This document shows, piece by piece, positions 4,208-19,385 of a DNA stretch of 64,000 bases (positions are counted from its first letter, which is position 1; every line of letters begins with the position of its first letter). The DNA lies in assembly GCA_965247775.1 (NCBI GenBank), contig OZ252031.1, forward strand, positions 1,621,496 to 1,685,495, given 5' to 3'. This stretch comes from Dehalococcoidia bacterium. Its GTDB lineage: Bacteria > Chloroflexota > Dehalococcoidia > Bin125. Made by a program: the position numbers and the translations under genes. The notes under the pieces were generated by a model. The model was not told the origin of the DNA. It saw only the letters and a program-made list of their open reading frames with translations, and searched no databases.

Positions 4208-5278
4208 GTGCTCATGAGGCTCAACCCGCTGGCCTGGATACTCGGCCGCTTGTCGCACGACATCGGCATTGATCTGGGGACCGCGAACACGCTGGTCACC
4301 GTCAAAGAGCGCGGCATCGTCATCGATGAGCCGTCGGTCGTGGCGATCGATCGCAACACGAAAACCGTCCTCGCGATCGGCGCGGAGGCGAAGCGCATGG
4401 TGGGCCGGACACCCGCCAACATCGTCGCTGTGCGGCCGCTCAAGGACGGCGTCATCTCCGACTTCGACGTGGCGGAGAAGATGCTGCAGTATTTCGTCCG
4501 CGCGGTCCATGATCGCTTCGGCTGGGGCCTGCCGCGACCGCGGGTGGTGGTGGGGATGCCCTCGGGGGTCACGGAGGTGGAGAAACGGGCGATCTACGAC
4601 GCGGTCACCAACGCCGGCGCGCGCGAAGCCTTCCTCGTCGAGGAGCCGCTGGCCGCTGCCATCGGCGCCGGCCTCCCGATCCTGGACGCGAGCGGCACGA
4701 TGATCGTGGACATCGGTGGAGGCACGACGGAGGTGGCGGTGCTGGCGCTGGGCGGGATCGTCGTCAGCACGTCGATCCGGATCGCCGGCGACGAGGTGGA
4801 CGCGGACATCATCAGCTACGCCCGCCAGGTCCACAACATGTTGATTGGCGACCGCTCGGCGGAGGAGATTAAGATCGAGGCGGGATCGGCCTTCCCTCTG
4901 GAGCGGGAGCGCCCGGTGGTGCTGCGCGGGCGGGATCTATCGACGGGGCTGCCCAAGCGTGTGGAGATCAGCAGTGTGGAATTGCGGGACGCGCTGAGCG
5001 CGTCGATCAGCGGCATCGCGGGCGCCGTGCGGCAAACGATCGAGATCACGCCCCCGGAGCTGGTGGCGGACCTGATGAATCAAGGCATCGCTCTGGCGGG
5101 GGGCGGCGCTCTGTTAGCCGGGATGGACCGGCGAATTTCGCAAGAGACGAAATTCCCGGTGTACGTGGCTGAGGATCCGCTGACCTGCGTGGTCCGCGGC
5201 TGCGCCGAGGTCCTGGAGGAGGCGGAGATGCTGATGAAAGTCCGCTCGCAGATGACAACCTGGCGCGGGCGCCGTTAG
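4208..5278 (+). CDS. mreB: Rod shape-determining protein MreB
   Basis: IGIDLGTANTLV actin-like phosphate-1 motif, DIGGGTTEVAV; GTG start, possibly ATG at 4214. Confidence 0.9.
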   Translation: MLMRLNPLAWILGRLSHDIGIDLGTANTLVTVKERGIVIDEPSVVAIDRNTKTVLAIGAEAKRMVGRTPANIVAVRPLKDGVISDFDVAEKMLQYFVRAVHDRFGWGLPRPRVVVGMPSGVTEVEKRAIYDAVTNAGAREAFLVEEPLAAAIGAGLPILDASGTMIVDIGGGTTEVAVLALGGIVVSTSIRIAGDEVDADIISYARQVHNMLIGDRSAEEIKIEAGSAFPLERERPVVLRGRDLSTGLPKRVEISSVELRDALSASISGIAGAVRQTIEITPPELVADLMNQGIALAGGGALLAGMDRRISQETKFPVYVAEDPLTCVVRGCAEVLEEAEMLMKVRSQMTTWRGRR

Positions 5279-5281
5279 GGC

Positions 5282-6172
5282 GTGATGACGCTCCTGCAAT
5301 CCCGGCTAGGCCAGTGGCTACTGGGCATGGCGGCGCTCATCGTCTTACTCGCGACGCTGGCGGCGCTCGGCGTCGCGCAGCCCGTGGAGGAAGCGGCGTC
5401 GACCGTGTTCGGCCCCATTCAGCGCGGCCTGCGCCGAGCCGCGGAGCCTGTCGCGAACCTGGTGGAGAGCGTCGACGAGTTCGACACCGTCGATGATGAG
5501 AACCGGGCTCTCCGCAATCGCATCGAGCAACTGGAGGCGGAGACCGCCCGCCTGCGCGAGACGCAGATCCAATTCCGCGGGCGGGAGGCGCTGCTTGCGG
5601 TGCAAGAGGCCTCGGACGAGATCTTCCTGACGGCGGGCGTGATCACGCGCGACCTCACCGGCCTGCTGGACGTCATTGCCCTCGACCGGGGCAGCAACGA
5701 CGGCGTTGAAGAGGGCATGGCCGTGCTCGCCGCCGGTGGCAGCCTGGTAGGCACCATCATGGAGGTGCGCCCGGGGTCCTCCTTTGTCCGGCTGCTGACG
5801 GATCCCGGGGGCAGCGCGCGAACGTTGCACCAACTGAGCCGCTCCGAGGGCGTGGTCAGCGGCGATACGGGCGGCAACCTGCGGGTCGATTTCATCCCTC
5901 GCACCGCCGACGTGCAGCCAGGCCATCTGTTCGTGACATCGGGCCTAGGGGGGCTGCTGCCCAAGGGCATCCCGGTTGGCCGTGTCGTGTCGGCGGAGGG
6001 ATCGGCGCAAGAGGTCTTCATGCGGGTCCGGCTGGAACCACTGGCGCCGCTGGACGAACTCGAGCTGGTGCTGGTCCAGATCACCTTCCGCCCCGAACCG
6101 CTGCCCCCGCCGGGCAGCGAGGTCGCGGAGGACGGCGCGGAGACGCAGGCCGCGGAGACCGCGGCGCCATGA
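5282..6172 (+). CDS. mreC: Rod shape-determining protein MreC
   Basis: N-terminal TM, coiled coil (ENRALRNRIEQLEAETARL), C-terminal beta domain; sits directly after mreB. Confidence 0.7.
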   Translation: MMTLLQSRLGQWLLGMAALIVLLATLAALGVAQPVEEAASTVFGPIQRGLRRAAEPVANLVESVDEFDTVDDENRALRNRIEQLEAETARLRETQIQFRGREALLAVQEASDEIFLTAGVITRDLTGLLDVIALDRGSNDGVEEGMAVLAAGGSLVGTIMEVRPGSSFVRLLTDPGGSARTLHQLSRSEGVVSGDTGGNLRVDFIPRTADVQPGHLFVTSGLGGLLPKGIPVGRVVSAEGSAQEVFMRVRLEPLAPLDELELVLVQITFRPEPLPPPGSEVAEDGAETQAAETAAP

Positions 6173-6657
6173 AGTGGCCACCGTTGATCCTGGGCGCCCT
6201 AGCGCTCACACTCCTGCAGACCTCCGCGGTGCCCGCCTTTCACCTGCTGGGGGTCGCGCCGAATCTCCTGCTCGTCGTGCTGTGTTGCTGGGCCGTGGTG
6301 CGGGACCAACGTGAGGCGTTGGTCATGGCGCCGCTCGCGGGGCTCTCGCTGGGACTGCTCTCGTTCCAAGGCATGGCGGAGTCCGTCGCGGCGTTCTTGC
6401 CGCTGGTGCTGATCGCGGCGCTGCGCGAGCAGGTCCGTCCCCCCAACGAGTACGCCTGGGCGCTGGCGGTGATCATCGGCGCTACGATCCTGCACTTCTT
6501 CGCCGTGGCCGTGACCATTCAGGTGGGTGGGGACAGCGTGGCTTGGCTGGACGCGCTCAGGGACGTGATGGTCCCCAGCGTGCTGACGAATCTCTTCATC
6601 GGCGCGCTCGTCTATTGGCTCGTGCGGCTGCCGACGCCGCAACCGGAGCCGGTCTGA
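6169..6657 (+). CDS. mreD: Rod shape-determining protein MreD (polytopic membrane protein)
   Basis: 162-aa multi-TM protein; overlaps the mreC stop by 4 nt and the mrdA start by 1 nt. Confidence 0.55.
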   Translation: MKWPPLILGALALTLLQTSAVPAFHLLGVAPNLLLVVLCCWAVVRDQREALVMAPLAGLSLGLLSFQGMAESVAAFLPLVLIAALREQVRPPNEYAWALAVIIGATILHFFAVAVTIQVGGDSVAWLDALRDVMVPSVLTNLFIGALVYWLVRLPTPQPEPV

Positions 6658-8705
6658 TGGGCCTCTTCACGGACCGCCGGCAGCCCGTGCTGCTCGTCCC
6701 GGCGGCCGAGGAGAATGCCGGGCTGCGCATCCGGGTCTGGCTGCTGGGCATCTTTGCGTTGATGCTCTTCGCGGTGCTGACGGTGCAACTCGTCCGGCTG
6801 CAGATCTTCCGGCAGGAAGAGTTCGAGGCGCTGGCGACGATCAATCGCATCCGGAACGAGAACCTCCCCGCGGAGCGCGGGCTGATTTACGATCGGGACG
6901 GGAACGCCCTGGTCGAAAACGTGCCGGCCTTCGCGATCTCCGTCGTCCCGGCCGACATCCCGGATGGGGAAGAAGCGGTGCTGGCGCAGCGGCTGGGCAG
7001 CGCCCTGGGCATCTCGCCCTTCGAGGTCGAGGCCGAGATCCTGGCGGGCAAGCGCAGCATCGACCCATTCTTCCCGCGGGTGCTGGAGACGAACGCGGAA
7101 CCGGAACTGGCCTTCGCGTTGTCCGCTCAGCGCGCCGCGCTGCCGGGTGTGCAGGTCGAGGCCGTGGCCAACCGCCTCTACGAGGAGAGCGACCTCCTCG
7201 CGCACATCCTGGGCTACGTCGGCCCGATCAGCCGGGACGAGTTCGCAGAGTTGGAGGCGGACCGGTACCGCATCTCGGACCGCCTCGGCCAGACGGGCGT
7301 GGAGGCGTCCTACGAGTCGCTCCTGCGCGGCGTCCCCGGCCGGCGCCAATTCGAAGTGAACGCCGAGGGACGGGAGCTTCGCACGCTCAGCGGCGAGGAC
7401 CCCGTCCCCGGCCACAGCGTGGTGCTGACGCTGGATCTGGAGCTGCAACGCCGGGTGCGAGACATCCTGCTGGAGTCGATGGGGGGGTCGCTGTTCGCCT
7501 CGGCGGTGGTCGTGGACGTGCGCAGCGGCGAATTGCTCGCGATGGTTTCCGTACCGGCCTATGACGCCAATCTGTTCACGGGTGATGTGGACGAAACGGC
7601 GCTGCAGGCGATCTTGGAGGACAAAGGGCGCCCGCTGGTGAATCACACCATCGCGGACCAGTTTCCGCCGGGATCGATCTTCAAGGTGATCACGGGCACG
7701 GCCGCCTTGCAGGAGCAGGTGATCGCGACGGGTGACGTGATCTTCTCACCCGGTGTGATCGAGGTGCAGAACGAGGTCGACGCGCGGATCACGTACACCT
7801 TCCGCGACACGACCAGCGGCAACTTCGACTTCGTGCGGGGGCTCGCGGAGTCGAGCAACGTGTACTTCTGGTACTTGTCCGGCGGGTCGCCCTTCCGCCG
7901 CCCGGTGCCGGAGGAGTTGCTGCCGCCGGAGGACCTGGCAGAGCAGCGGCGGCTGGAAGCGGAAGGCGTGATCGGCGGGCTGCAGGGATTCACCGGCTTG
8001 GGCGCGGAAGCGCTGGCGCGCTGGTCGCGGAACTTCGGGCTGGACGCCAGCACGGGCGTCGATCTGCAAGGGGAGGCCTCGGGCTTCATCCCCGACCCAG
8101 CCTGGAAGCTGCGGACGTTCGGGGAGGGCTGGGGTCAGGGCGACTCCTACAACTTCGGCATCGGCCAGGGATTCGTGGCCGTGACGCCGCTGCAGATGGC
8201 GATGGTGACGGCAGCGATCGCGAACGGGGGATCGGTCCTGGAGCCGCGTGTCGTGGGCGACATCGTCGATACGGCGGGCAGCGTTGTGGAGCCGTTCCGG
8301 CCGGTGGTGTCGCAACAGCTGAACGCGGACCCCGCAACGCTGGAGGCGGTGCGCCGCGGCATGGCGATGGCCGTGCTGGGCGGCACGGCGGGCAACGCCT
8401 GGATCCCGGAAATGCAAGTGGCCGGCAAGACGGGAACGGCGGAGTTCGGGGAAGAGGAGCTGTTCCGCGGTGACTTCCCGACGCACGGCTGGTTCCTGGG
8501 TTTCGCCCCGTACGAGGACCCCCAGATCGCGGTAGCGGTCTTCCACGAACTCGGAGCGGGCTTCCTCACCGCCTCCGCAGGGGCCGACGTCTTCCGCGCC
8601 TGGGGCGAACTCAACGACGTCTTCGGGACGGTCCTGCCGGCCCTGGGACAACTGCCGGTACGCACGGTGGAGGCGTTCAACGAGATCGCGAGCCGGCTGC
8701 CATGA
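6657..8705 (+). CDS. mrdA: Penicillin-binding protein 2 (peptidoglycan transpeptidase)
   Basis: N-terminal TM, PBP dimerisation domain, transpeptidase motifs SxxK (GSIFK), SSN (ESSNVYF), KTG (AGKTGTA); start at M39 of the ORF. Confidence 0.85.
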   Translation: MGLFTDRRQPVLLVPAAEENAGLRIRVWLLGIFALMLFAVLTVQLVRLQIFRQEEFEALATINRIRNENLPAERGLIYDRDGNALVENVPAFAISVVPADIPDGEEAVLAQRLGSALGISPFEVEAEILAGKRSIDPFFPRVLETNAEPELAFALSAQRAALPGVQVEAVANRLYEESDLLAHILGYVGPISRDEFAELEADRYRISDRLGQTGVEASYESLLRGVPGRRQFEVNAEGRELRTLSGEDPVPGHSVVLTLDLELQRRVRDILLESMGGSLFASAVVVDVRSGELLAMVSVPAYDANLFTGDVDETALQAILEDKGRPLVNHTIADQFPPGSIFKVITGTAALQEQVIATGDVIFSPGVIEVQNEVDARITYTFRDTTSGNFDFVRGLAESSNVYFWYLSGGSPFRRPVPEELLPPEDLAEQRRLEAEGVIGGLQGFTGLGAEALARWSRNFGLDASTGVDLQGEASGFIPDPAWKLRTFGEGWGQGDSYNFGIGQGFVAVTPLQMAMVTAAIANGGSVLEPRVVGDIVDTAGSVVEPFRPVVSQQLNADPATLEAVRRGMAMAVLGGTAGNAWIPEMQVAGKTGTAEFGEEELFRGDFPTHGWFLGFAPYEDPQIAVAVFHELGAGFLTASAGADVFRAWGELNDVFGTVLPALGQLPVRTVEAFNEIASRLP

Positions 8706-14203: not shown

Positions 14204-14289
14204 GTGCAGTGGGTGGGGCGCGCGGGGGCCCCGCTTCCTTTCGCGGAGGGGCCCATGGTACCGACGCGCGGGCGGCGGGGCAACCGGGG

Positions 14290-14312
14290 GGGGATTATAA
14301 GCCTAACTTGAC
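14290..14312. repeat. Left terminal inverted repeat of the IS1595-like unit
   Basis: Exact reverse complement of 17249..17271; preceded by AACCGGGG. Confidence 0.7.
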
Positions 14313-14342
14313 AGACGGGCGGGATTCCGGTATCGTCAGGGC

Positions 14343-15326
14343 ATGGTGACGAGTGCTCCCGGCAAAGCGCACCGCACGGGAATCTCCCTCATGGAGCTGT
14401 TCGCGTTGTTCCCCGACGAGGCCGCGGCGACGGGCTGGTTTGAGTCCCTCGTGTGGCCCGAGGTGCGCGGCTGCGGCCATTGCGGCAGCGTCAAAACGCG
14501 CGAGGTGCCGAACGCCAAGCCGATGCCCTACTGGTGCTCGGACTGCCGCTCCTACTTCAGCGTCCGCACGGGAACGGCGCTCTCCCACTCCAAGGTTCCC
14601 CTCCGCAAATGGGCCGTCGCCATCTACCTCGAAATGACCTCCCTCAAGGGCGTGTCGAGCATGAAGCTCCACCGGGACATTGCCGTGAGCCAGCCAGCGG
14701 CCTGGTTCATGCTCCACCGCATCCGCGAGGCGTGGGCCGGCCCAGACGGCGGCAAGCTGGCCGGACCCGTGGAAGTTGATGAGGCATATATGGGCGGGGT
14801 CGAGCGCAACAAGCACGAGCACGAGCGCCAGCGGGCGCACGCACGCGGCGGGCTCTCCGACAAGGCCCCCGTCATCGGCGTGAAGGATCGGGCAACCGGC
14901 ACGGTCCGCGCCCGCGCCATCCTGAGCACGGACGGCGAGACGCTCCGCGGGTTCGTGCGGGAGCACACGCAGCCGGGCGCCCAGGTCTACTCGGACGGGC
15001 ACGGCGCGTACACGCTGCTGGAGGGCGAGTACAAGCACAACGCGGTCCAGCACAGCGTCGGAACCTACGTCATCGGCCAGGCCCACACGAACGGGATCGA
15101 ATCATTTTGGGGAACGCTGAAGCGCGCGCACAAGGGCGTCTACCACAAGATCTCGCCGAAGCATCTGGACCGCTACGTCCAGCAGTTCGCAGGGAAGCAC
15201 AACCTCCGCGACGCGGACACGCTAGCGCAGATGGCCGCGGTCGCTGCCGGTCTCGTCGGGCGACGGCTGCTCTACCGTGATCTCGTCGCGGCCAACGGGC
15301 TTCCGTCGGGGGCGCGGGGTGCGTAG
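14343..15326 (+). CDS. IS1595-family (ISXO2-like) DDE transposase with N-terminal zinc ribbon
   Basis: CGHCGS...CSDCRSYF zinc ribbon, then ISXO2-like DDE domain (VEVDEAYMGG, YSDGHGAY, NGIESFWGTLKR); possible later start at M17. Confidence 0.85.
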   Translation: MVTSAPGKAHRTGISLMELFALFPDEAAATGWFESLVWPEVRGCGHCGSVKTREVPNAKPMPYWCSDCRSYFSVRTGTALSHSKVPLRKWAVAIYLEMTSLKGVSSMKLHRDIAVSQPAAWFMLHRIREAWAGPDGGKLAGPVEVDEAYMGGVERNKHEHERQRAHARGGLSDKAPVIGVKDRATGTVRARAILSTDGETLRGFVREHTQPGAQVYSDGHGAYTLLEGEYKHNAVQHSVGTYVIGQAHTNGIESFWGTLKRAHKGVYHKISPKHLDRYVQQFAGKHNLRDADTLAQMAAVAAGLVGRRLLYRDLVAANGLPSGARGA

Positions 15327-15421
15327 GAGCGCCCGCGCCACATCCTCGGGTGTGGCCCCCTGGTAGCGCGGATTCAGCGGGGGCTCCTGTCTCTCGCCGG
15401 TCATGCTGTCCTTCCTCCCAA

Positions 15422-15694
15422 TTATGGCAGTCCCATCAGGTCTCGAGCGTGGCGGACAGCCCGATCAAGAGTGTTGCAGCACTTGCGGATCGCCGCTTCG
15501 TCGTCCAGCGTCAAGCTATGTTCCTCAGCGATCAGAACCTCAGCCCATTCTCGCACTTCACCATGTAGACGACCTGCTGGATCGTTTTTCGCAAACACTT
15601 GCGCAAGCGCAGTCACGAAGCCCACAAACGCCTCGGTCGTGAGAACGTCGCCCTGAGCAGGATCAGTAGGGTCGTAGGACTCCTTGGTCGCCAT
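15422..15694 (-). CDS. Hypothetical protein (90 aa), cargo of the IS1595-like unit
   Basis: Clean ORF with no family recognised; 14 nt downstream of the 64-aa ORF on the same strand. Confidence 0.35.
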   Translation of the reverse strand: MATKESYDPTDPAQGDVLTTEAFVGFVTALAQVFAKNDPAGRLHGEVREWAEVLIAEEHSLTLDDEAAIRKCCNTLDRAVRHARDLMGLP

Positions 15695-15708
15695 AACGCC
15701 ACTTGCGA

Positions 15709-15903
15709 CTAGGAGCCGTTGCGGTTGATGGCCTCCAGGAGTTCCGCTCGCAGATCATCCGTGGCGCTGTGGAGCCGCTGCTCCATGCCCGCCATGTCCG
15801 CTCGGATCTCCAGGCGGAGAGCGGCGATCTCCTGTCGTACATCGTTGATGCGGAGATGCGCGGCGACGGCGCTGGCATGGCTCTCGGGAGCGCTGGTGGT
15901 CAT
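15709..15903 (-). CDS. Hypothetical small coiled-coil protein (64 aa), cargo of the IS1595-like unit
   Basis: Heptad-like LRxE repeats; no family recognised. Confidence 0.35.
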   Translation of the reverse strand: MTTSAPESHASAVAAHLRINDVRQEIAALRLEIRADMAGMEQRLHSATDDLRAELLEAINRNGS

Positions 15904-16254
15904 GGTGGTCGCGTCTCCTTCGGCGGAGGGGTGACGTTCCCTAGGCGTCTAGCCTAGCGAATCCTCCCGTACTGTAAATCCTTCACCACCACGGGGGCAA
16001 CGCCCCTCGCGATCGCAGGTTCGACTCTGCCAGACCATGCGAGTAGAACGAGCGGAACTCGATGCTCCCTTGTGGCCCTACTTGCTGAACTGGTCTGGCA
16101 ACGAGTTCCGCTCGCTGCAAGGGAGCCCCTTGATGGCTACGACTGCCCCGAAGCTTCAAGACGCTCTCGCCGCTCTTGCTGCCGGCGCCGTGTTCATCGG
16201 CACCTTTCTCCCCTGCTCAGGGATGGGGGGGAAGTGGCTTCGGCATGACGGCTC

Positions 16255-17196
16255 CTAGCCTACCGCGTTGATCTCGGCCGTGAACGGGCCACCGCACCCA
16301 GAATCGTCGATGTAGAAGGGGCCAGACCCATCGTAGTCAGCAATCGAGAAACCCAGCGTATGGGTCCCTTTCGCTTCCAGCGTGCGAACCTCCGCGACAG
16401 GGGAGCCCTCCTCGTCGACAATCCAGAGGTAGCACCAGTCGCCGTCCGCATCTTGCAGGAAGAGGTCGGCACCCGTAGTCGTGGCAGTGTAGCGGCCCGG
16501 CTCGAGTGAGAATGACGTGTAGCTATCCGCGACGGACACGCCCGCGGTGGTAGTGGGCGCTGGCTCTGGTGCAGGTGTAACCGCCGGCTCAGGCTCAGGC
16601 TCCACCACGGCAGCCGGCGCAACTGGCACTGTCTCCTCATTATCCTCACAGGTGAACATCAGGCGGTCGAGCCGGAACTGCCTGAGGCCTTCCCAATCCA
16701 ACCAAACCTGGTCGTTACTCTTTCCAACGGCGCGGCCATCATGAGGGAATACCTTGACGCGAATAACCCCCTCGCTTGTCGGGGCTGTCAGGAAACGGAT
16801 GTAATCCCCGGCCTGGATCTGACCGGTTACTTGCGGGTTGCCAGAATAGATGACACCTGGCGCCTGGCCCCACTGCATGGACGATTCGGCGAGGAGCCGA
16901 TTGCAGACCACGAACTCCTGGTAAGACTCCTCGAAGGTGGGATCAGGCGCGGGTTCCGGTGCGACCGCAGGTTCCGGCTTCGGTGCGGCCGCTGGCACGG
17001 GCTTAGGCGCCCGCACAACCTCCCGCACTGTCTCCGGCTCTGCCGCTTTCGGCTCAGGCTCAACCCGAGGCGTCACGGCGGCGGCAACCTCGTTGGACTC
17101 CGAGTCCTCATCTCCCCCGCCGATGGCGACGAGCACGCCAATGACGAGCAAGCCGACCATGCCAATAATGAGCATCTTTCTAAATCTGGTCGTCAT
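16255..17196 (-). CDS. Membrane-anchored, extracytoplasmic two-domain protein with Pro/Ala/Glu-rich linkers, unknown function (cargo)
   Basis: N-terminal TM (MLIIGMVGLLVIGVLVAI), PEPKAAEPE linkers, two ~95-aa Cys-containing globular segments; lower GC than its surroundings. Confidence 0.55.
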   Translation of the reverse strand: MTTRFRKMLIIGMVGLLVIGVLVAIGGGDEDSESNEVAAAVTPRVEPEPKAAEPETVREVVRAPKPVPAAAPKPEPAVAPEPAPDPTFEESYQEFVVCNRLLAESSMQWGQAPGVIYSGNPQVTGQIQAGDYIRFLTAPTSEGVIRVKVFPHDGRAVGKSNDQVWLDWEGLRQFRLDRLMFTCEDNEETVPVAPAAVVEPEPEPAVTPAPEPAPTTTAGVSVADSYTSFSLEPGRYTATTTGADLFLQDADGDWCYLWIVDEEGSPVAEVRTLEAKGTHTLGFSIADYDGSGPFYIDDSGCGGPFTAEINAVG

Positions 17197-17248
17197 AGCA
17201 GGAACCCCCTCGCAAGCTGAGGGAACCTAGCAAGGAGGGTGGCCTGGC

Positions 17249-17271
17249 GTCAAGTTAGGCTTATAATCCCC
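17249..17271. repeat. Right terminal inverted repeat of the IS1595-like unit
   Basis: Exact reverse complement of 14290..14312; followed by AACCGGGG. Confidence 0.7.
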
Positions 17272-17311
17272 AACCGGGGCCGGTGGGGCCCGAGCGCTGG
17301 CGCCCGCCGGT

Positions 17312-17366
17312 ACGGGCCCCGCCCCCGCTGGGGCGGGCAAGGCAAACGCCCGTCCGAAGACGGGCG
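17312..17366 (-). terminator. Tandem GC-rich hairpins downstream of 5S rRNA (candidate rrn terminators)
   Basis: Minus-strand GCCCGTCttcgGACGGGC followed by GTTTGCCTT, then CCCGCCCCagcgGGGGCGGG. Confidence 0.5.
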
Positions 17367-17381
17367 CTGCGCAAGGCAGCG

Positions 17382-17501
17382 GGCTGGCGATGGCCTATTT
17401 TCCGCAGGGGGTTGCCCCCCGAGTATCGTCAGCGCTGCGACGTTTCACTGCCGTGTTCGGGATGGGAACGGGTGGGGCCATCGCGCTCTAATCACCAGCA
17501 C
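17382..17501 (-). rRNA. rrf: 5S ribosomal RNA
   Basis: Minus-strand CCCGTTCCCATCCCGAACACGGCAGTGAAACG core matches the 5S loop B/C consensus; helix I closes GCUGGUGAU with AUCGCCAGC. Confidence 0.8.
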
Positions 17502-17531
17502 CGATGCTGCTGAGGGGTGGATCCGGCGGTC

Positions 17532-17607
17532 TGGTGGAGCCGAGGGGGGTCGAACCCCTGACCTCCGCCTTGCAAAGGCGGCGCTCTCCCAGCTGAGCTA
17601 CGGCCCC
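17532..17607 (-). tRNA. tRNA-Ala (anticodon TGC)
   Basis: Cloverleaf with G3:U70 and UGC anticodon; CCA encoded. Confidence 0.9.
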
Positions 17608-17622
17608 GGCGGGAGTGCAGGC

Positions 17623-17699
17623 TGGTGGGCCATCCTGGACTCGAACCAGGGACCTCAGTCTTATCAGGACTGCGCTCTAACCAGCTGAGCTAATGGCCC
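17623..17699 (-). tRNA. tRNA-Ile (anticodon GAT)
   Basis: Cloverleaf with CUGAUAA anticodon loop; typical rrn spacer tRNA. Confidence 0.9.
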
Positions 17700-17887
17700 G
17701 TGGCGTGGAGGCCGGATCGGTGGGCGACGCCGGGCCAGGCCGACGCCGCCTTAGCAGCTGGAGAGCGAAAGAGAACATGCTCCGGCGAGCGGACGGACGC
17801 CTGCGGGGCGCGTACCGGACGCGTTCCCCGCGAGCGATCGACCTGGAAGCCTGCCGACCCCACCGAGGGCCGGAGGGCACTCCCTAG

Positions 17888-19385
<1,498 letters not shown>

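What the first reader, a model, noticed from the sequence alone, without database searches (positions are those of the whole stretch)
14282..17279. IS1595-family unit with cargo genes, perfect 23-bp inverted repeats and 8-bp target duplication, inserted 110 bp downstream of 5S rRNA
The transposase (14343..15326) is ISXO2/IS1595-type, but the matching inverted repeat is not after its stop codon. It lies 1.9 kb further on, at 17249..17271. GGGGATTATAAGCCTAACTTGAC occurs at 14290..14312 and its exact reverse complement at 17249..17271. Both ends are flanked by AACCGGGG, at 14282..14289 and 17272..17279. This is the 8-bp target duplication expected for IS1595. So the mobile unit is 2982 bp and carries three extra ORFs (15422..15694, 15709..15903, 16255..17196). 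The cargo part looks A/T-richer than the ~70% GC surroundings, by eye and not computed. Cargo-carrying IS1595 relatives exist, but this cargo is unrecognisable to me. The insertion separates the rrn terminators from the rpsA promoter region.
Basis: seen in the sequence. Interest (0 to 1): 0.75.

Follow-up and report, generated by a model that had tools for sequence, protein, structure and literature searches.

The report
Cargo-carrying IS1595 insertion sequence
This is an intact 2,982-bp jumping gene of a known kind (an IS1595-family "transporter" insertion sequence) that landed between a ribosomal RNA operon and the rpsA promoter carrying a few orphan genes, and its relatives reveal a conserved small backbone gene that matches no family in four protein libraries.

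Summary
There are 23/23-bp inverted repeats at 14290-14312 and 17249-17271, an 8-bp duplication AACCGGGG on both sides, and cargo at 59-63% GC against 70% for the window. The transposase belongs to the IS1595 family, with the DDE(K) residues and a four-Cys zinc ribbon conserved.

A syntenic relative (L085) has an uninterrupted rpsA-5S spacer, so the whole unit is an insertion.

Cargo is the rule in this clade. Of 66 related elements with defined ends, 59 carry 0.2-3.7 kb beyond the core, and 50 have exact 8-bp duplications. In three genomes whole units are 100% identical at unrelated sites.

- A fourth ORF (15222-15404, minus strand, "orfX") overlaps the transposase 3' end antisense. It is a conserved backbone gene, not cargo. 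It has about 1,300 homologs and no hit in four protein-family libraries.
- The 90-aa ORF is shared with a related element, where it follows a methyltransferase-HNH gene. That fusion is the clade's most recurrent cargo.

Only the 64-aa and 313-aa ORFs are specific to this copy. Their function is unknown; the 313-aa protein is predicted to be membrane-anchored.

Verdict: a new member of a known kind, of moderate interest.

The parts
14282..14289 (.). Left copy of the 8-bp target-site duplication AACCGGGG
   Evidence: Read directly. It is identical to 17272-17279. An 8-bp duplication is exact in 50 of 66 related elements.
14290..14312 (+). Left terminal inverted repeat (IRL), GGGGATTATAAGCCTAACTTGAC
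   Evidence: 23/23 complementary to 17249-17271, with 0 matches expected by chance. The same repeat is identical in L084 and L085. The clade consensus is GGGRATTAT..TTGACA.
14308..14336 (+). Candidate transposase promoter: -35 TTGACA (inner end of IRL), 17-nt spacer, -10 TATCGT. It ends 6 nt before the ATG, which suggests a leaderless or near-leaderless mRNA.
   Evidence: Consensus scan gives 10/12 matches. TTGAC is conserved at the inner end of both repeats across the clade. Function is inferred, not shown.
14343..15326 (+). IS1595-family DDE transposase, 327 aa, intact
   Evidence: Pfam PF12762 at 2.2e-39. NCBIfam NF033547 at 1.6e-51. D146, D218, E253, K260 and C44/C47/C65/C68 are at least 97% conserved in 78 relatives. 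Relatives are 56-92% identical and of the same length.
15222..15404 (-). orfX: a conserved 60-aa backbone ORF. Its first 26 codons lie beyond the transposase stop codon and the rest runs antisense through the last ~35 transposase codons. A Shine-Dalgarno sequence GGGAGG lies upstream.
   Evidence: It is present at the same position in 53 of 86 related loci, found by a strict motif in a fixed window, including the 1,320-bp L072/L077. The 1,245-bp copies L009-L013 carry a divergent version. Diversity at codon positions 1/2/3 outside the transposase CDS is 0.27/0.22/0.60. Invariant Leu uses CTN and TTR, and Arg uses CGN and AGR. The alternative plus-strand frame has stops in 10/48 sequences. 1,301 called homologs carry no Pfam domain or name. 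There is no Pfam, NCBIfam, PADLOC or PHROGs hit.
15422..15694 (-). 90-aa ORF (c90): cargo shared with a related methyltransferase-HNH-carrying element
   Evidence: It has one credible homolog among 1.84 billion representatives, P0254 at 74% identity. That homolog lies inside another IS1595 unit and overlaps the end of an N6_N4_Mtase-HNH gene by 4 nt. Nucleotide homology between the window and L088 runs 14290-15678 at 78%. GC3 is 0.58.
15709..15903 (-). 64-aa ORF (c64): copy-specific cargo of unknown function
   Evidence: ORF list. It has a GAAGGAGA Shine-Dalgarno sequence and GC3 of 0.82. No family is hit in four libraries. No homolog is found in the 83 related loci then held or in L086.
15904..16254 (.). 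351-bp spacer within the cargo; no convincing gene
   Evidence: It contains only a 73-aa plus-strand ORF with no homologs. No Rfam match at E<=1.
16255..17196 (-). 313-aa ORF (c313): copy-specific cargo. It has an N-terminal transmembrane helix, a Pro/Glu-rich linker, a Cys-bracketed conserved domain and a C-terminal beta-rich domain.
   Evidence: Only 8 other homologs exist in 5.8 billion proteins. The 69%-identical homolog in L086 is not inside an IS1595 unit. The AlphaFold model is poor (pLDDT 61, helix 4-26). The only fold matches are weak carbohydrate-binding-module-like ones, best E=0.019.
17249..17271 (-). Right terminal inverted repeat (IRR)
   Evidence: Exact reverse complement of IRL.
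17272..17279 (.). Right copy of the 8-bp target-site duplication AACCGGGG
   Evidence: Read directly.
14255..14283 (-). Context: candidate rpsA promoter (-35 TTGCCC at 14283-14278, 17-nt spacer, -10 TACCAT at 14260-14255). Its -35 overlaps the left duplication by 2 nt.
   Evidence: The same two hexamers at the same spacing, with a different spacer sequence, occur in the syntenic relative L085. This is an inference from conservation. It falls below the scan threshold (8/12).
17347..17499 (-). Context: 5S rRNA (17382-17499) and the terminator-like hairpin after it (17362-17347)
   Evidence: Rfam RF00001 at 88.9 bits. Terminator scan.

Best explanation
The 2,982-bp segment 14290-17271 is one intact, probably recently inserted, IS1595-family transporter insertion sequence (an IS that carries passenger genes inside its inverted repeats).

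Its backbone (14290 to about 15404) consists of:
- the left repeat, whose inner TTGACA probably serves as the -35 of the transposase promoter;
- a zinc-ribbon DDE(K) transposase;
- a small conserved gene, orfX, convergent with the transposase and overlapping its 3' end antisense.

Between orfX and the right repeat lies a variable cargo slot. In this copy it holds a 90-aa gene inherited from a methyltransferase-HNH-carrying ancestor. It also holds a 64-aa gene and a 313-aa membrane-anchored protein gene, both of lower GC. The 313-aa gene was probably captured from elsewhere.

The inferred mechanism is that the transposase binds the two 23-bp ends, moves everything between them as one unit, and makes 8-bp staggered target cuts. 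Here it landed between the rrn terminator and the -35 of the rpsA promoter, and the duplication kept that hexamer intact.

Shown: anatomy, family, insertion relative to a syntenic relative, whole-unit mobility in relatives, and protein-coding selection on orfX.

Inferred: promoter roles, that orfX acts in transposition, how the cargo was swapped, and that the cargo gives the host a surface-related trait.
For: - Exact repeats and 8-bp duplication.
- IS1595 family by Pfam and NCBIfam, with DDE(K) and four Cys conserved.
- The syntenic relative L085 (82-88% nt identity) has rpsA followed directly by 5S-tRNAAla-tRNAIle-16S, with no transposase or cargo. It carries the same backbone, with an identical IRL, upstream of 16S, where the window is uninterrupted.
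- Census of relatives: 66 of 86 loci have repeat pairs, 50 have exact 8-bp duplications, lengths run 1,245-4,971 bp with a median of 2,723, and 59 are 1,400 bp or longer.
- Whole cargo-bearing units are 100% identical at unrelated sites in the same genome or MAG: L014/L015, L022/L023 and L040/L043.
- The same backbone carries different cargo in L084, L085 and L088.
- The closest c313 homolog lies outside any IS1595 unit.
- Cargo GC and GC3 are lower than in host genes.
- orfX coding evidence.
- Transporter ISs of the IS1595 family are established in the literature (Siguier et al. 2009, as cited in PMC3129680 and PMC8496243).
Against: - Only one copy lies in the window. The source genome could not be searched: the exact repeat is absent from the genome and metagenome collections, and exact-protein look-ups failed. 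Mobility of this particular copy is therefore inferred.
- The empty site in L085 has diverged, with indels around the junction, so it is not an exact uninterrupted AACCGGGG. No exact empty site was found.
- The right-end promoter is weak: TTGACG, 18 nt, TAGGTT is below the scan threshold.
- Cargo function is unknown. There are no family hits and the models are poor.
- I could not query ISfinder, so the subgroup assignment and the claim that orfX is undescribed are unverified.
Confidence: 0.9

Rival explanations
1. This is a plain IS plus trapped resident DNA. An ordinary ~1.1-1.2-kb IS1595 copy lost its own right repeat, and a solo right repeat 1.9 kb away happens to bracket genes that belong to the chromosome.
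For: The cargo genes have no link to transposition, and the window holds only one copy.
Against: - The identical 8-bp duplication flanks the 2,982-bp unit, not the core.
- The syntenic relative L085 lacks both transposase and cargo at this spot.
- There is no degenerate repeat after the transposase stop codon.
- Cargo GC and GC3 are foreign.
- Most relatives have the same long architecture with exact duplications.
Confidence: 0.03
2. This is a remnant of a composite transposon, or a one-ended (ISEcp1-like) mobilisation. Either the right end comes from a second, mostly deleted IS copy, or it is a surrogate end in flanking DNA that the transposase used once.
For: - A few related loci (L030, L041, L051, L055, L060) carry a second fragment of the orfX motif elsewhere in the locus, which hints at rearranged second copies (not followed up).
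- L032 and L033 share a cargo segment in inverted orientation.
Against: - In the window the right repeat is a perfect 23/23 match, and no second transposase or orfX fragment lies next to it.
- Surrogate ends are normally imperfect.
- In this and many related elements base 24 is G at the right end and A at the left. This fits a genuine right end better than an inverted left end.
Confidence: 0.05
3. It is an assembly chimera: the IS and the cargo were joined by misassembly of repeats.
For: The neighbouring rRNA locus is unusual (16S-tRNA-tRNA-5S with no 23S), and rRNA regions are prone to misassembly.
Against: - The transposase (P0001) and the 313-aa protein (P0125) are each recorded on a contig of the same length, 2,781,974 bp.
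- The perfect repeats and duplication are not what a chimera would produce.
- The same 16S-tRNA-tRNA-5S arrangement is collinear in an independent assembly, L085.
Confidence: 0.02

Closest known systems
IS1595-family transporter insertion sequences (tIS; Siguier, Gagnevin & Chandler 2009, Res Microbiol 160:232, as cited in PMC3129680 and PMC8496243)
   Same: A single IS1595-type DDE transposase, short terminal inverted repeats, an 8-bp target duplication, and passenger genes unrelated to transposition inside the repeats. The total length of 2,982 bp fits the range I recall for passenger-carrying members.
   Different: - The host lineage is Chloroflexota (the nearest named relatives are Tepidiformaceae MAGs).
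- The cargo consists of orphan proteins.
- The element has a conserved antisense-overlapping small gene (orfX). I could not find it in Pfam, NCBIfam, PHROGs or PADLOC, and I could not check it against ISfinder.
ISNwi1 subgroup of IS1595 (ISfinder classification; features recalled from memory, not verified here)
   Same: The repeat tip GGGGATTAT matches the subgroup consensus I recall (ggnnatTAT). The catalytic signature is D, D, E, then K seven residues after E. Variants with passenger genes exist.
   Different: No ISfinder comparison was possible. The best hit in annotated plasmid records is only 42.6% identical (other listed hits 33-38%), and the annotated hits are labelled just 'IS1595 family transposase'.
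The clade's own methyltransferase-HNH-carrying elements (e.g. L088rc 4870-7539, L007, L014, L084, L085)
   Same: The same backbone (IRL, transposase, orfX) at 78-92% nt identity, the same repeat consensus and the same 8-bp duplication. L088 also shares the 90-aa gene.
   Different: Those elements carry an N6_N4 DNA methyltransferase, most often fused to an HNH nuclease. The window copy has a 64-aa gene, a 351-bp spacer and a 313-aa membrane-anchored protein gene in that place.
ISEcp1-type capture of adjacent genes
   Same: One transposase mobilises neighbouring non-transposition genes.
   Different: ISEcp1 uses imperfect surrogate right ends that differ from event to event (my own knowledge). 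Here the right end is a perfect, clade-typical repeat, and the whole unit is reproduced identically in relatives.

Membership tests
IS1595 family | DDE transposase with the ISXO2-like/IS1595 catalytic domain | tested here: met
   PF12762 at 2.2e-39, 135 bits against a cut-off of 27. NF033547 at 1.6e-51, 175 bits against a cut-off of 75. D146, D218, E253 and K260 are at least 97% conserved in 78 relatives.
IS1595 family | N-terminal zinc-ribbon (CxxC...CxxC) DNA-binding region | tested here: met
   C44, C47, C65 and C68 are at least 97% conserved. Pfam PF12760 matches only below its cut-off (18.8 against 25.4 bits). The precomputed Pfam calls list it for several relatives.
IS1595 family | Short terminal inverted repeats at both ends | tested here: met
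   23/23 bp. The clade consensus is GGGRATTAT...TTGACA.
IS1595 family | 8-bp target-site duplication (family expectation recalled from ISfinder) | tested here: met
   AACCGGGG on both sides. Exact 8-bp duplications in 50 of 66 relatives.
IS1595 family | Evidence of mobility (several copies, empty sites) | tested here: inconclusive
   The source genome could not be searched. Indirect support: a diverged empty site in L085, and identical whole units at different sites in relatives.
Transporter IS (tIS) | Passenger genes unrelated to transposition lie inside the repeats and move with the IS | tested here: met
   Cargo 15422-17196 lies inside the repeats and the duplication. It is absent from the syntenic locus. 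A c313 homolog occurs outside any IS. Relatives move cargo-bearing units whole.
ISNwi1 subgroup | Subgroup-specific end sequence and catalytic signature, and clustering with ISNwi1 in ISfinder | not testable with these tools
   The tip GGGGATTAT and the DDE-K pattern agree with what I recall of the subgroup. No ISfinder or reference ISNwi1 sequence was available, and the literature held does not reproduce the table.
Composite transposon | Two IS copies flanking the cargo | tested here: not met
   There is one transposase gene, and no second transposase or orfX fragment elsewhere in the window.
Unit transposon of the Tn3 type | Large Tn3-type transposase plus a resolvase/res site | tested here: not met
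   The only transposition protein is a 327-aa IS1595 transposase. No recombinase family was hit among the cargo ORFs.

The most novel reading that the evidence does not exclude
The clade this element belongs to spans Chloroflexota, Acidobacteriota and Alpha- and Gammaproteobacteria. It may not be a one-gene IS that occasionally picks up passengers. It may instead be a distinct two-gene transposon platform:
- a transposase;
- a previously undescribed ~60-aa protein (orfX), encoded antisense across the transposase 3' end and under clear purifying selection;
- a dedicated cargo slot between orfX and the right end, filled in about 90% of elements and in about 30% of cargo sets by one family of DNA methyltransferase, most often fused to an HNH nuclease.

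On this reading orfX would be a transposition regulator or transposase partner, and the methyltransferase-nuclease module would be a selfish or defence cargo that helps the element persist.
Probability: 0.4. Interest if true: 0.6.

Novelty: new member of a known kind. Interest (0 to 1): 0.4.

Why it matters
As a single locus it is a textbook-quality example of a passenger-carrying insertion sequence, with perfect ends, a perfect duplication and a syntenic empty site. It sits exactly between an rRNA terminator and the promoter of an essential ribosomal protein gene, without breaking either.

The wider value comes from its relatives. In this widespread IS1595 clade, carrying cargo is the norm rather than the exception, and the cargo is swapped at one fixed position. 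One methyltransferase family, most often fused to an HNH nuclease, recurs across phyla. The backbone also encodes a strongly conserved small protein that matches no family in four libraries.

If orfX regulates transposition or cargo exchange, it would give a handle on an open question: how transporter ISs acquire and exchange passenger genes. It would also mean that annotations treating these elements as lone transposase genes are incomplete.

Tried and rejected
- Exact-protein look-ups of the transposase, the NCBI-length transposase (P0001), the 313-aa protein and RpsA found no indexed contig, so the source genome could not be examined.
- The exact 23-bp repeat is absent from the genome collection and from JGI metagenomes. 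An exact empty-site junction is also absent from JGI metagenomes.
- Pfam, NCBIfam, PADLOC and PHROGs give nothing for the 313-, 90-, 64- and 60-aa proteins.
- The AlphaFold model of the 313-aa protein is poor (pLDDT 61). A Foldseek search of the PDB gave no match at E<=0.001, only weak carbohydrate-binding-module-like beta-sandwich resemblance, which I do not rely on.
- The orfX model shows one short helix and is otherwise low-confidence.
- Rfam at a permissive threshold finds no RNA family inside the unit.
- I considered that the 3-base periodicity near orfX might reflect a plus-strand frame, such as a frameshift extension of the transposase. I rejected this because that frame has stops in 10/48 sequences, including the window, and because invariant Leu and Arg positions use both codon families in the minus frame.
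- I considered an outward-facing promoter in the left repeat (its tip contains TATAAT on the outward strand) as a driver of rpsA. There is no usable -35 hexamer 17 bp upstream (read). A conserved native rpsA promoter candidate survives next to the duplication.
- I tested whether the methyltransferase-HNH cargo co-diverges with the transposase. The correlation is weak (Pearson 0.38, Spearman 0.08), so this is undecided.
- The literature held does not include the original IS1595 family paper or the subgroup table.


Full report
**Observation**

GGGGATTATAAGCCTAACTTGAC lies at 14290-14312, and its exact reverse complement lies at 17249-17271. There is no other match in the 64-kb window at up to 3 mismatches, and none is expected by chance. 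AACCGGGG flanks both ends, at 14282-14289 and 17272-17279. The unit is 2,982 bp. The listed ORFs exist.

The window is 69.7% GC, the backbone 14290-15375 is 67.8%, 15376-15694 is 58.6% and 15695-17248 is 63.1%. Third-codon-position GC is 0.88 for rpsA and the transposase, 0.71 for the 313-aa ORF and 0.58 for the 90-aa ORF.

5S rRNA is at 17382-17499 on the minus strand, so the right repeat ends 110 bp downstream of it. A terminator-like hairpin lies in between, at 17362-17347.

**Family**

The 327-aa protein matches the IS1595 catalytic domain: PF12762 at 2.2e-39 and NF033547 at 1.6e-51. In an alignment of 78 intact relatives, D146, D218, E253 and K260 are at least 97% conserved, as are the four cysteines of an N-terminal CxxC...CxxC zinc ribbon. 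Relatives of 56-92% identity are abundant in metagenome-assembled genomes of Chloroflexota (the closest are Tepidiformaceae), Acidobacteriota and Proteobacteria.

**Is the whole unit an insertion?**

L085 is a contig from a related organism (82-88% nucleotide identity). It is collinear with the window for clpB and rpsA, and then continues directly into 5S, tRNA-Ala, tRNA-Ile and 16S. The rpsA-5S spacer there holds neither transposase nor cargo. The junction region has diverged, with small indels, so this is an approximate rather than an exact empty site.

L085 carries the same backbone, with an identical 23-bp left repeat, at a different place upstream of 16S. The window is uninterrupted at that place. 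The L085 element is 3,531 bp and has different cargo. Each genome therefore serves as the empty site for the other.

I could not examine the source genome itself. Exact-protein look-ups and exact-repeat scans found nothing.

**Is cargo unusual in this clade?**

It is not.
- I delimited ends in 86 related loci. 66 have a recognisable repeat pair with the consensus GGGRATTAT...TTGACA, and 50 of those have an exact 8-bp duplication.
- Lengths run from 1,245 to 4,971 bp, with a median of 2,723. Only 7 elements are under 1,400 bp.
- Cargo-bearing units move whole. L014/L015 (2,976 bp), L022/L023 (3,318 bp) and L040/L043 (2,830 bp) are 100% identical over the full unit, with unrelated flanks and different duplications.
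- This is the known transporter IS architecture of the IS1595 family (Siguier et al. 2009, as cited in PMC3129680 and PMC8496243).
- The repeat tip and the DDE-K signature agree with what I recall of the ISNwi1 subgroup. I could not verify this without ISfinder.

A 60-aa minus-strand ORF at 15222-15404 starts 78 bp past the transposase stop codon and runs antisense through the last ~35 transposase codons.
- A tblastn search found it at the same position in nearly all related loci, down to relatives whose transposase is about 57% identical. A strict motif recovered it in 53 of 86 loci, including the 1,320-bp L072/L077. The 1,245-bp copies L009-L013 carry a divergent version.
- It usually has an ATG preceded by a GGAGG-like Shine-Dalgarno sequence.
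- In the part that lies outside the transposase coding sequence, nucleotide diversity at codon positions 1/2/3 is 0.27/0.22/0.60. The G-A-T-P-E codons vary only at position 3.
- A plus-strand frame shares the same wobble phase, so I tested strand. Invariant Leu positions use both CTN and TTR, and Arg positions use both CGN and AGR. The plus frame has stops in 10 of 48 sequences, and the minus frame is more conserved (0.67 against 0.60 identity).
- A profile search found 1,301 called proteins of 59-112 aa (among the 120 listed), none with a Pfam domain or a name. Pfam, NCBIfam, PADLOC and PHROGs give nothing.
- The structure model shows a single short helix (residues 19-27) in an otherwise low-confidence chain.

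I infer that orfX is a small accessory or regulatory protein of the element, possibly a transposase partner. The convergent overlap also allows antisense control. Neither idea is shown.

**The cargo slot and this copy's cargo**

Homology between the window and L084/L085 ends at about 15375, just inside the 5' end of orfX. Everything between orfX and the right repeat is variable.

Among the 20 largest cargo ORFs sampled:
- 13 are N6_N4 DNA methyltransferases, 8 of them fused to an HNH nuclease and 2 to a T5orf172 domain;
- 2 are HSDR_N restriction-type proteins;
- 3 are nested transposases.

One methyltransferase family occurs in 16 of 55 non-redundant cargo sets.

The window copy lacks that gene, but its 90-aa ORF has a single credible homolog among 1.84 billion representatives (74% identity). 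That homolog lies in another element of this clade (L088), directly after a methyltransferase-HNH gene and overlapping it by 4 nt. Nucleotide homology between that element and the window runs from 14290 to 15678. The 90-aa gene is therefore probably inherited from a methyltransferase-carrying ancestor. Only 15695-17248 (the 64-aa ORF, a 351-bp spacer and the 313-aa ORF) is specific to this copy.

The 313-aa protein has only 8 other homologs in 5.8 billion proteins. They share an N-terminal transmembrane helix, a proline-rich linker and a cysteine-bracketed conserved domain (WGQAPG...GDY.RF...RVKVFPHDGRAVG...DQVW). Four of the nine sequences, the window protein included, also have a second beta-rich domain. 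Its closest homolog sits outside any IS1595 unit, in a region with an integrase and IS3 fragments. This fits capture of a free-standing gene.

The model is poor and fold matches are not significant. My best guess is a cell-surface protein. That guess rests only on the predicted N-terminal transmembrane helix and the beta-rich domains.

**Local consequences**

On the minus strand, TTGCCC (14283-14278), a 17-nt spacer and TACCAT (14260-14255) precede rpsA. L085 has the same two hexamers at the same spacing, with a different spacer sequence. This is probably the rpsA promoter.

The target duplication overlaps its -35 by two bases, so the insertion left the promoter intact and placed the left repeat directly upstream. 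The transposase itself has a 10/12 promoter match, with its -35 in the left repeat and its -10 ending 6 nt before the ATG. That suggests a leaderless mRNA.

**Verdict**

The element is a new member of a known kind. The less ordinary results concern the clade:
- cargo is the rule;
- it occupies a fixed slot;
- one methyltransferase family, most often fused to HNH, recurs;
- the backbone encodes a conserved small protein that matches no family in four libraries.

Noticed in passing
window 17382-19385 (minus strand); also L085 3466-5856: The rRNA operon reads 16S, tRNA-Ile, tRNA-Ala, 5S. Only 32 bp separate tRNA-Ala from 5S, and there is no 23S anywhere in the 64-kb window. The same arrangement is collinear in an independent assembly of a related organism, so it is probably real and not a misassembly. 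The 23S gene must lie elsewhere.
   Followed up: partly
L007, L014, L016, L020, L039, L064, L065, L067, L076, L084, L085, L088 and others (cargo regions): One family of N6_N4 DNA methyltransferase, fused in most sampled cases to an HNH or T5orf172 nuclease domain, recurs as cargo in this IS1595 clade across several phyla (16 of 55 non-redundant cargo sets). It is often followed by a small ORF. It might be an addiction or defence module. Co-divergence with the transposase is weak.
   Followed up: partly
window 14255-14283 (minus strand): A candidate rpsA promoter (TTGCCC, 17 nt, TACCAT) is conserved in hexamers and spacing, but not in spacer sequence, in L085. The IS target duplication overlaps its -35 by 2 nt, so the A/T-rich IS tip now sits where an UP element would be.
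   Followed up: partly
L011, L012 (1,245-bp cargo-free copies, Bryobacterales MAG; L009 and L013 are the same length): When L011 and L012 were compared, the terminal inverted repeats extended to about 103 bp at 98% identity, far longer than the ~24 bp shared across the clade.
   Followed up: no
L003 5940-8014: This copy of the window's transposase (about 92% nt identity) has lost its left repeat next to an IS6-family transposase. It is followed by a SocA_Panacea-domain gene (antitoxin-like). The contig ends before the right end.
   Followed up: no
L030 7693-7749, L041 8116-8181, L051 7748-7879, L055 8186-8281, L060 8568-8615: A second, isolated fragment of the orfX N-terminal motif lies on the plus strand downstream of the transposase, in addition to or apart from the normal minus-strand copy. 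In L030 and L041 it lies inside the delimited element near the right end. These may be remnants of rearranged second copies and could bear on how cargo is acquired.
   Followed up: no
L032 vs L033 (same MAG): The repeats and the first 2,004 bp are the same, but a 1.3-kb cargo segment is in inverted orientation. L033 is 1.3 kb longer and carries an additional DDE_Tnp_1 transposase. This is evidence of rearrangement and nesting inside the cargo slot.
   Followed up: no
window 14290-14299 and 17262-17271: The conserved repeat tip GGGGATTATAA contains a perfect TATAAT hexamer on the outward-reading strand, 4 nt from each end. No matching -35 is present in this copy. In other insertions it could contribute to hybrid promoters.
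   Followed up: partly
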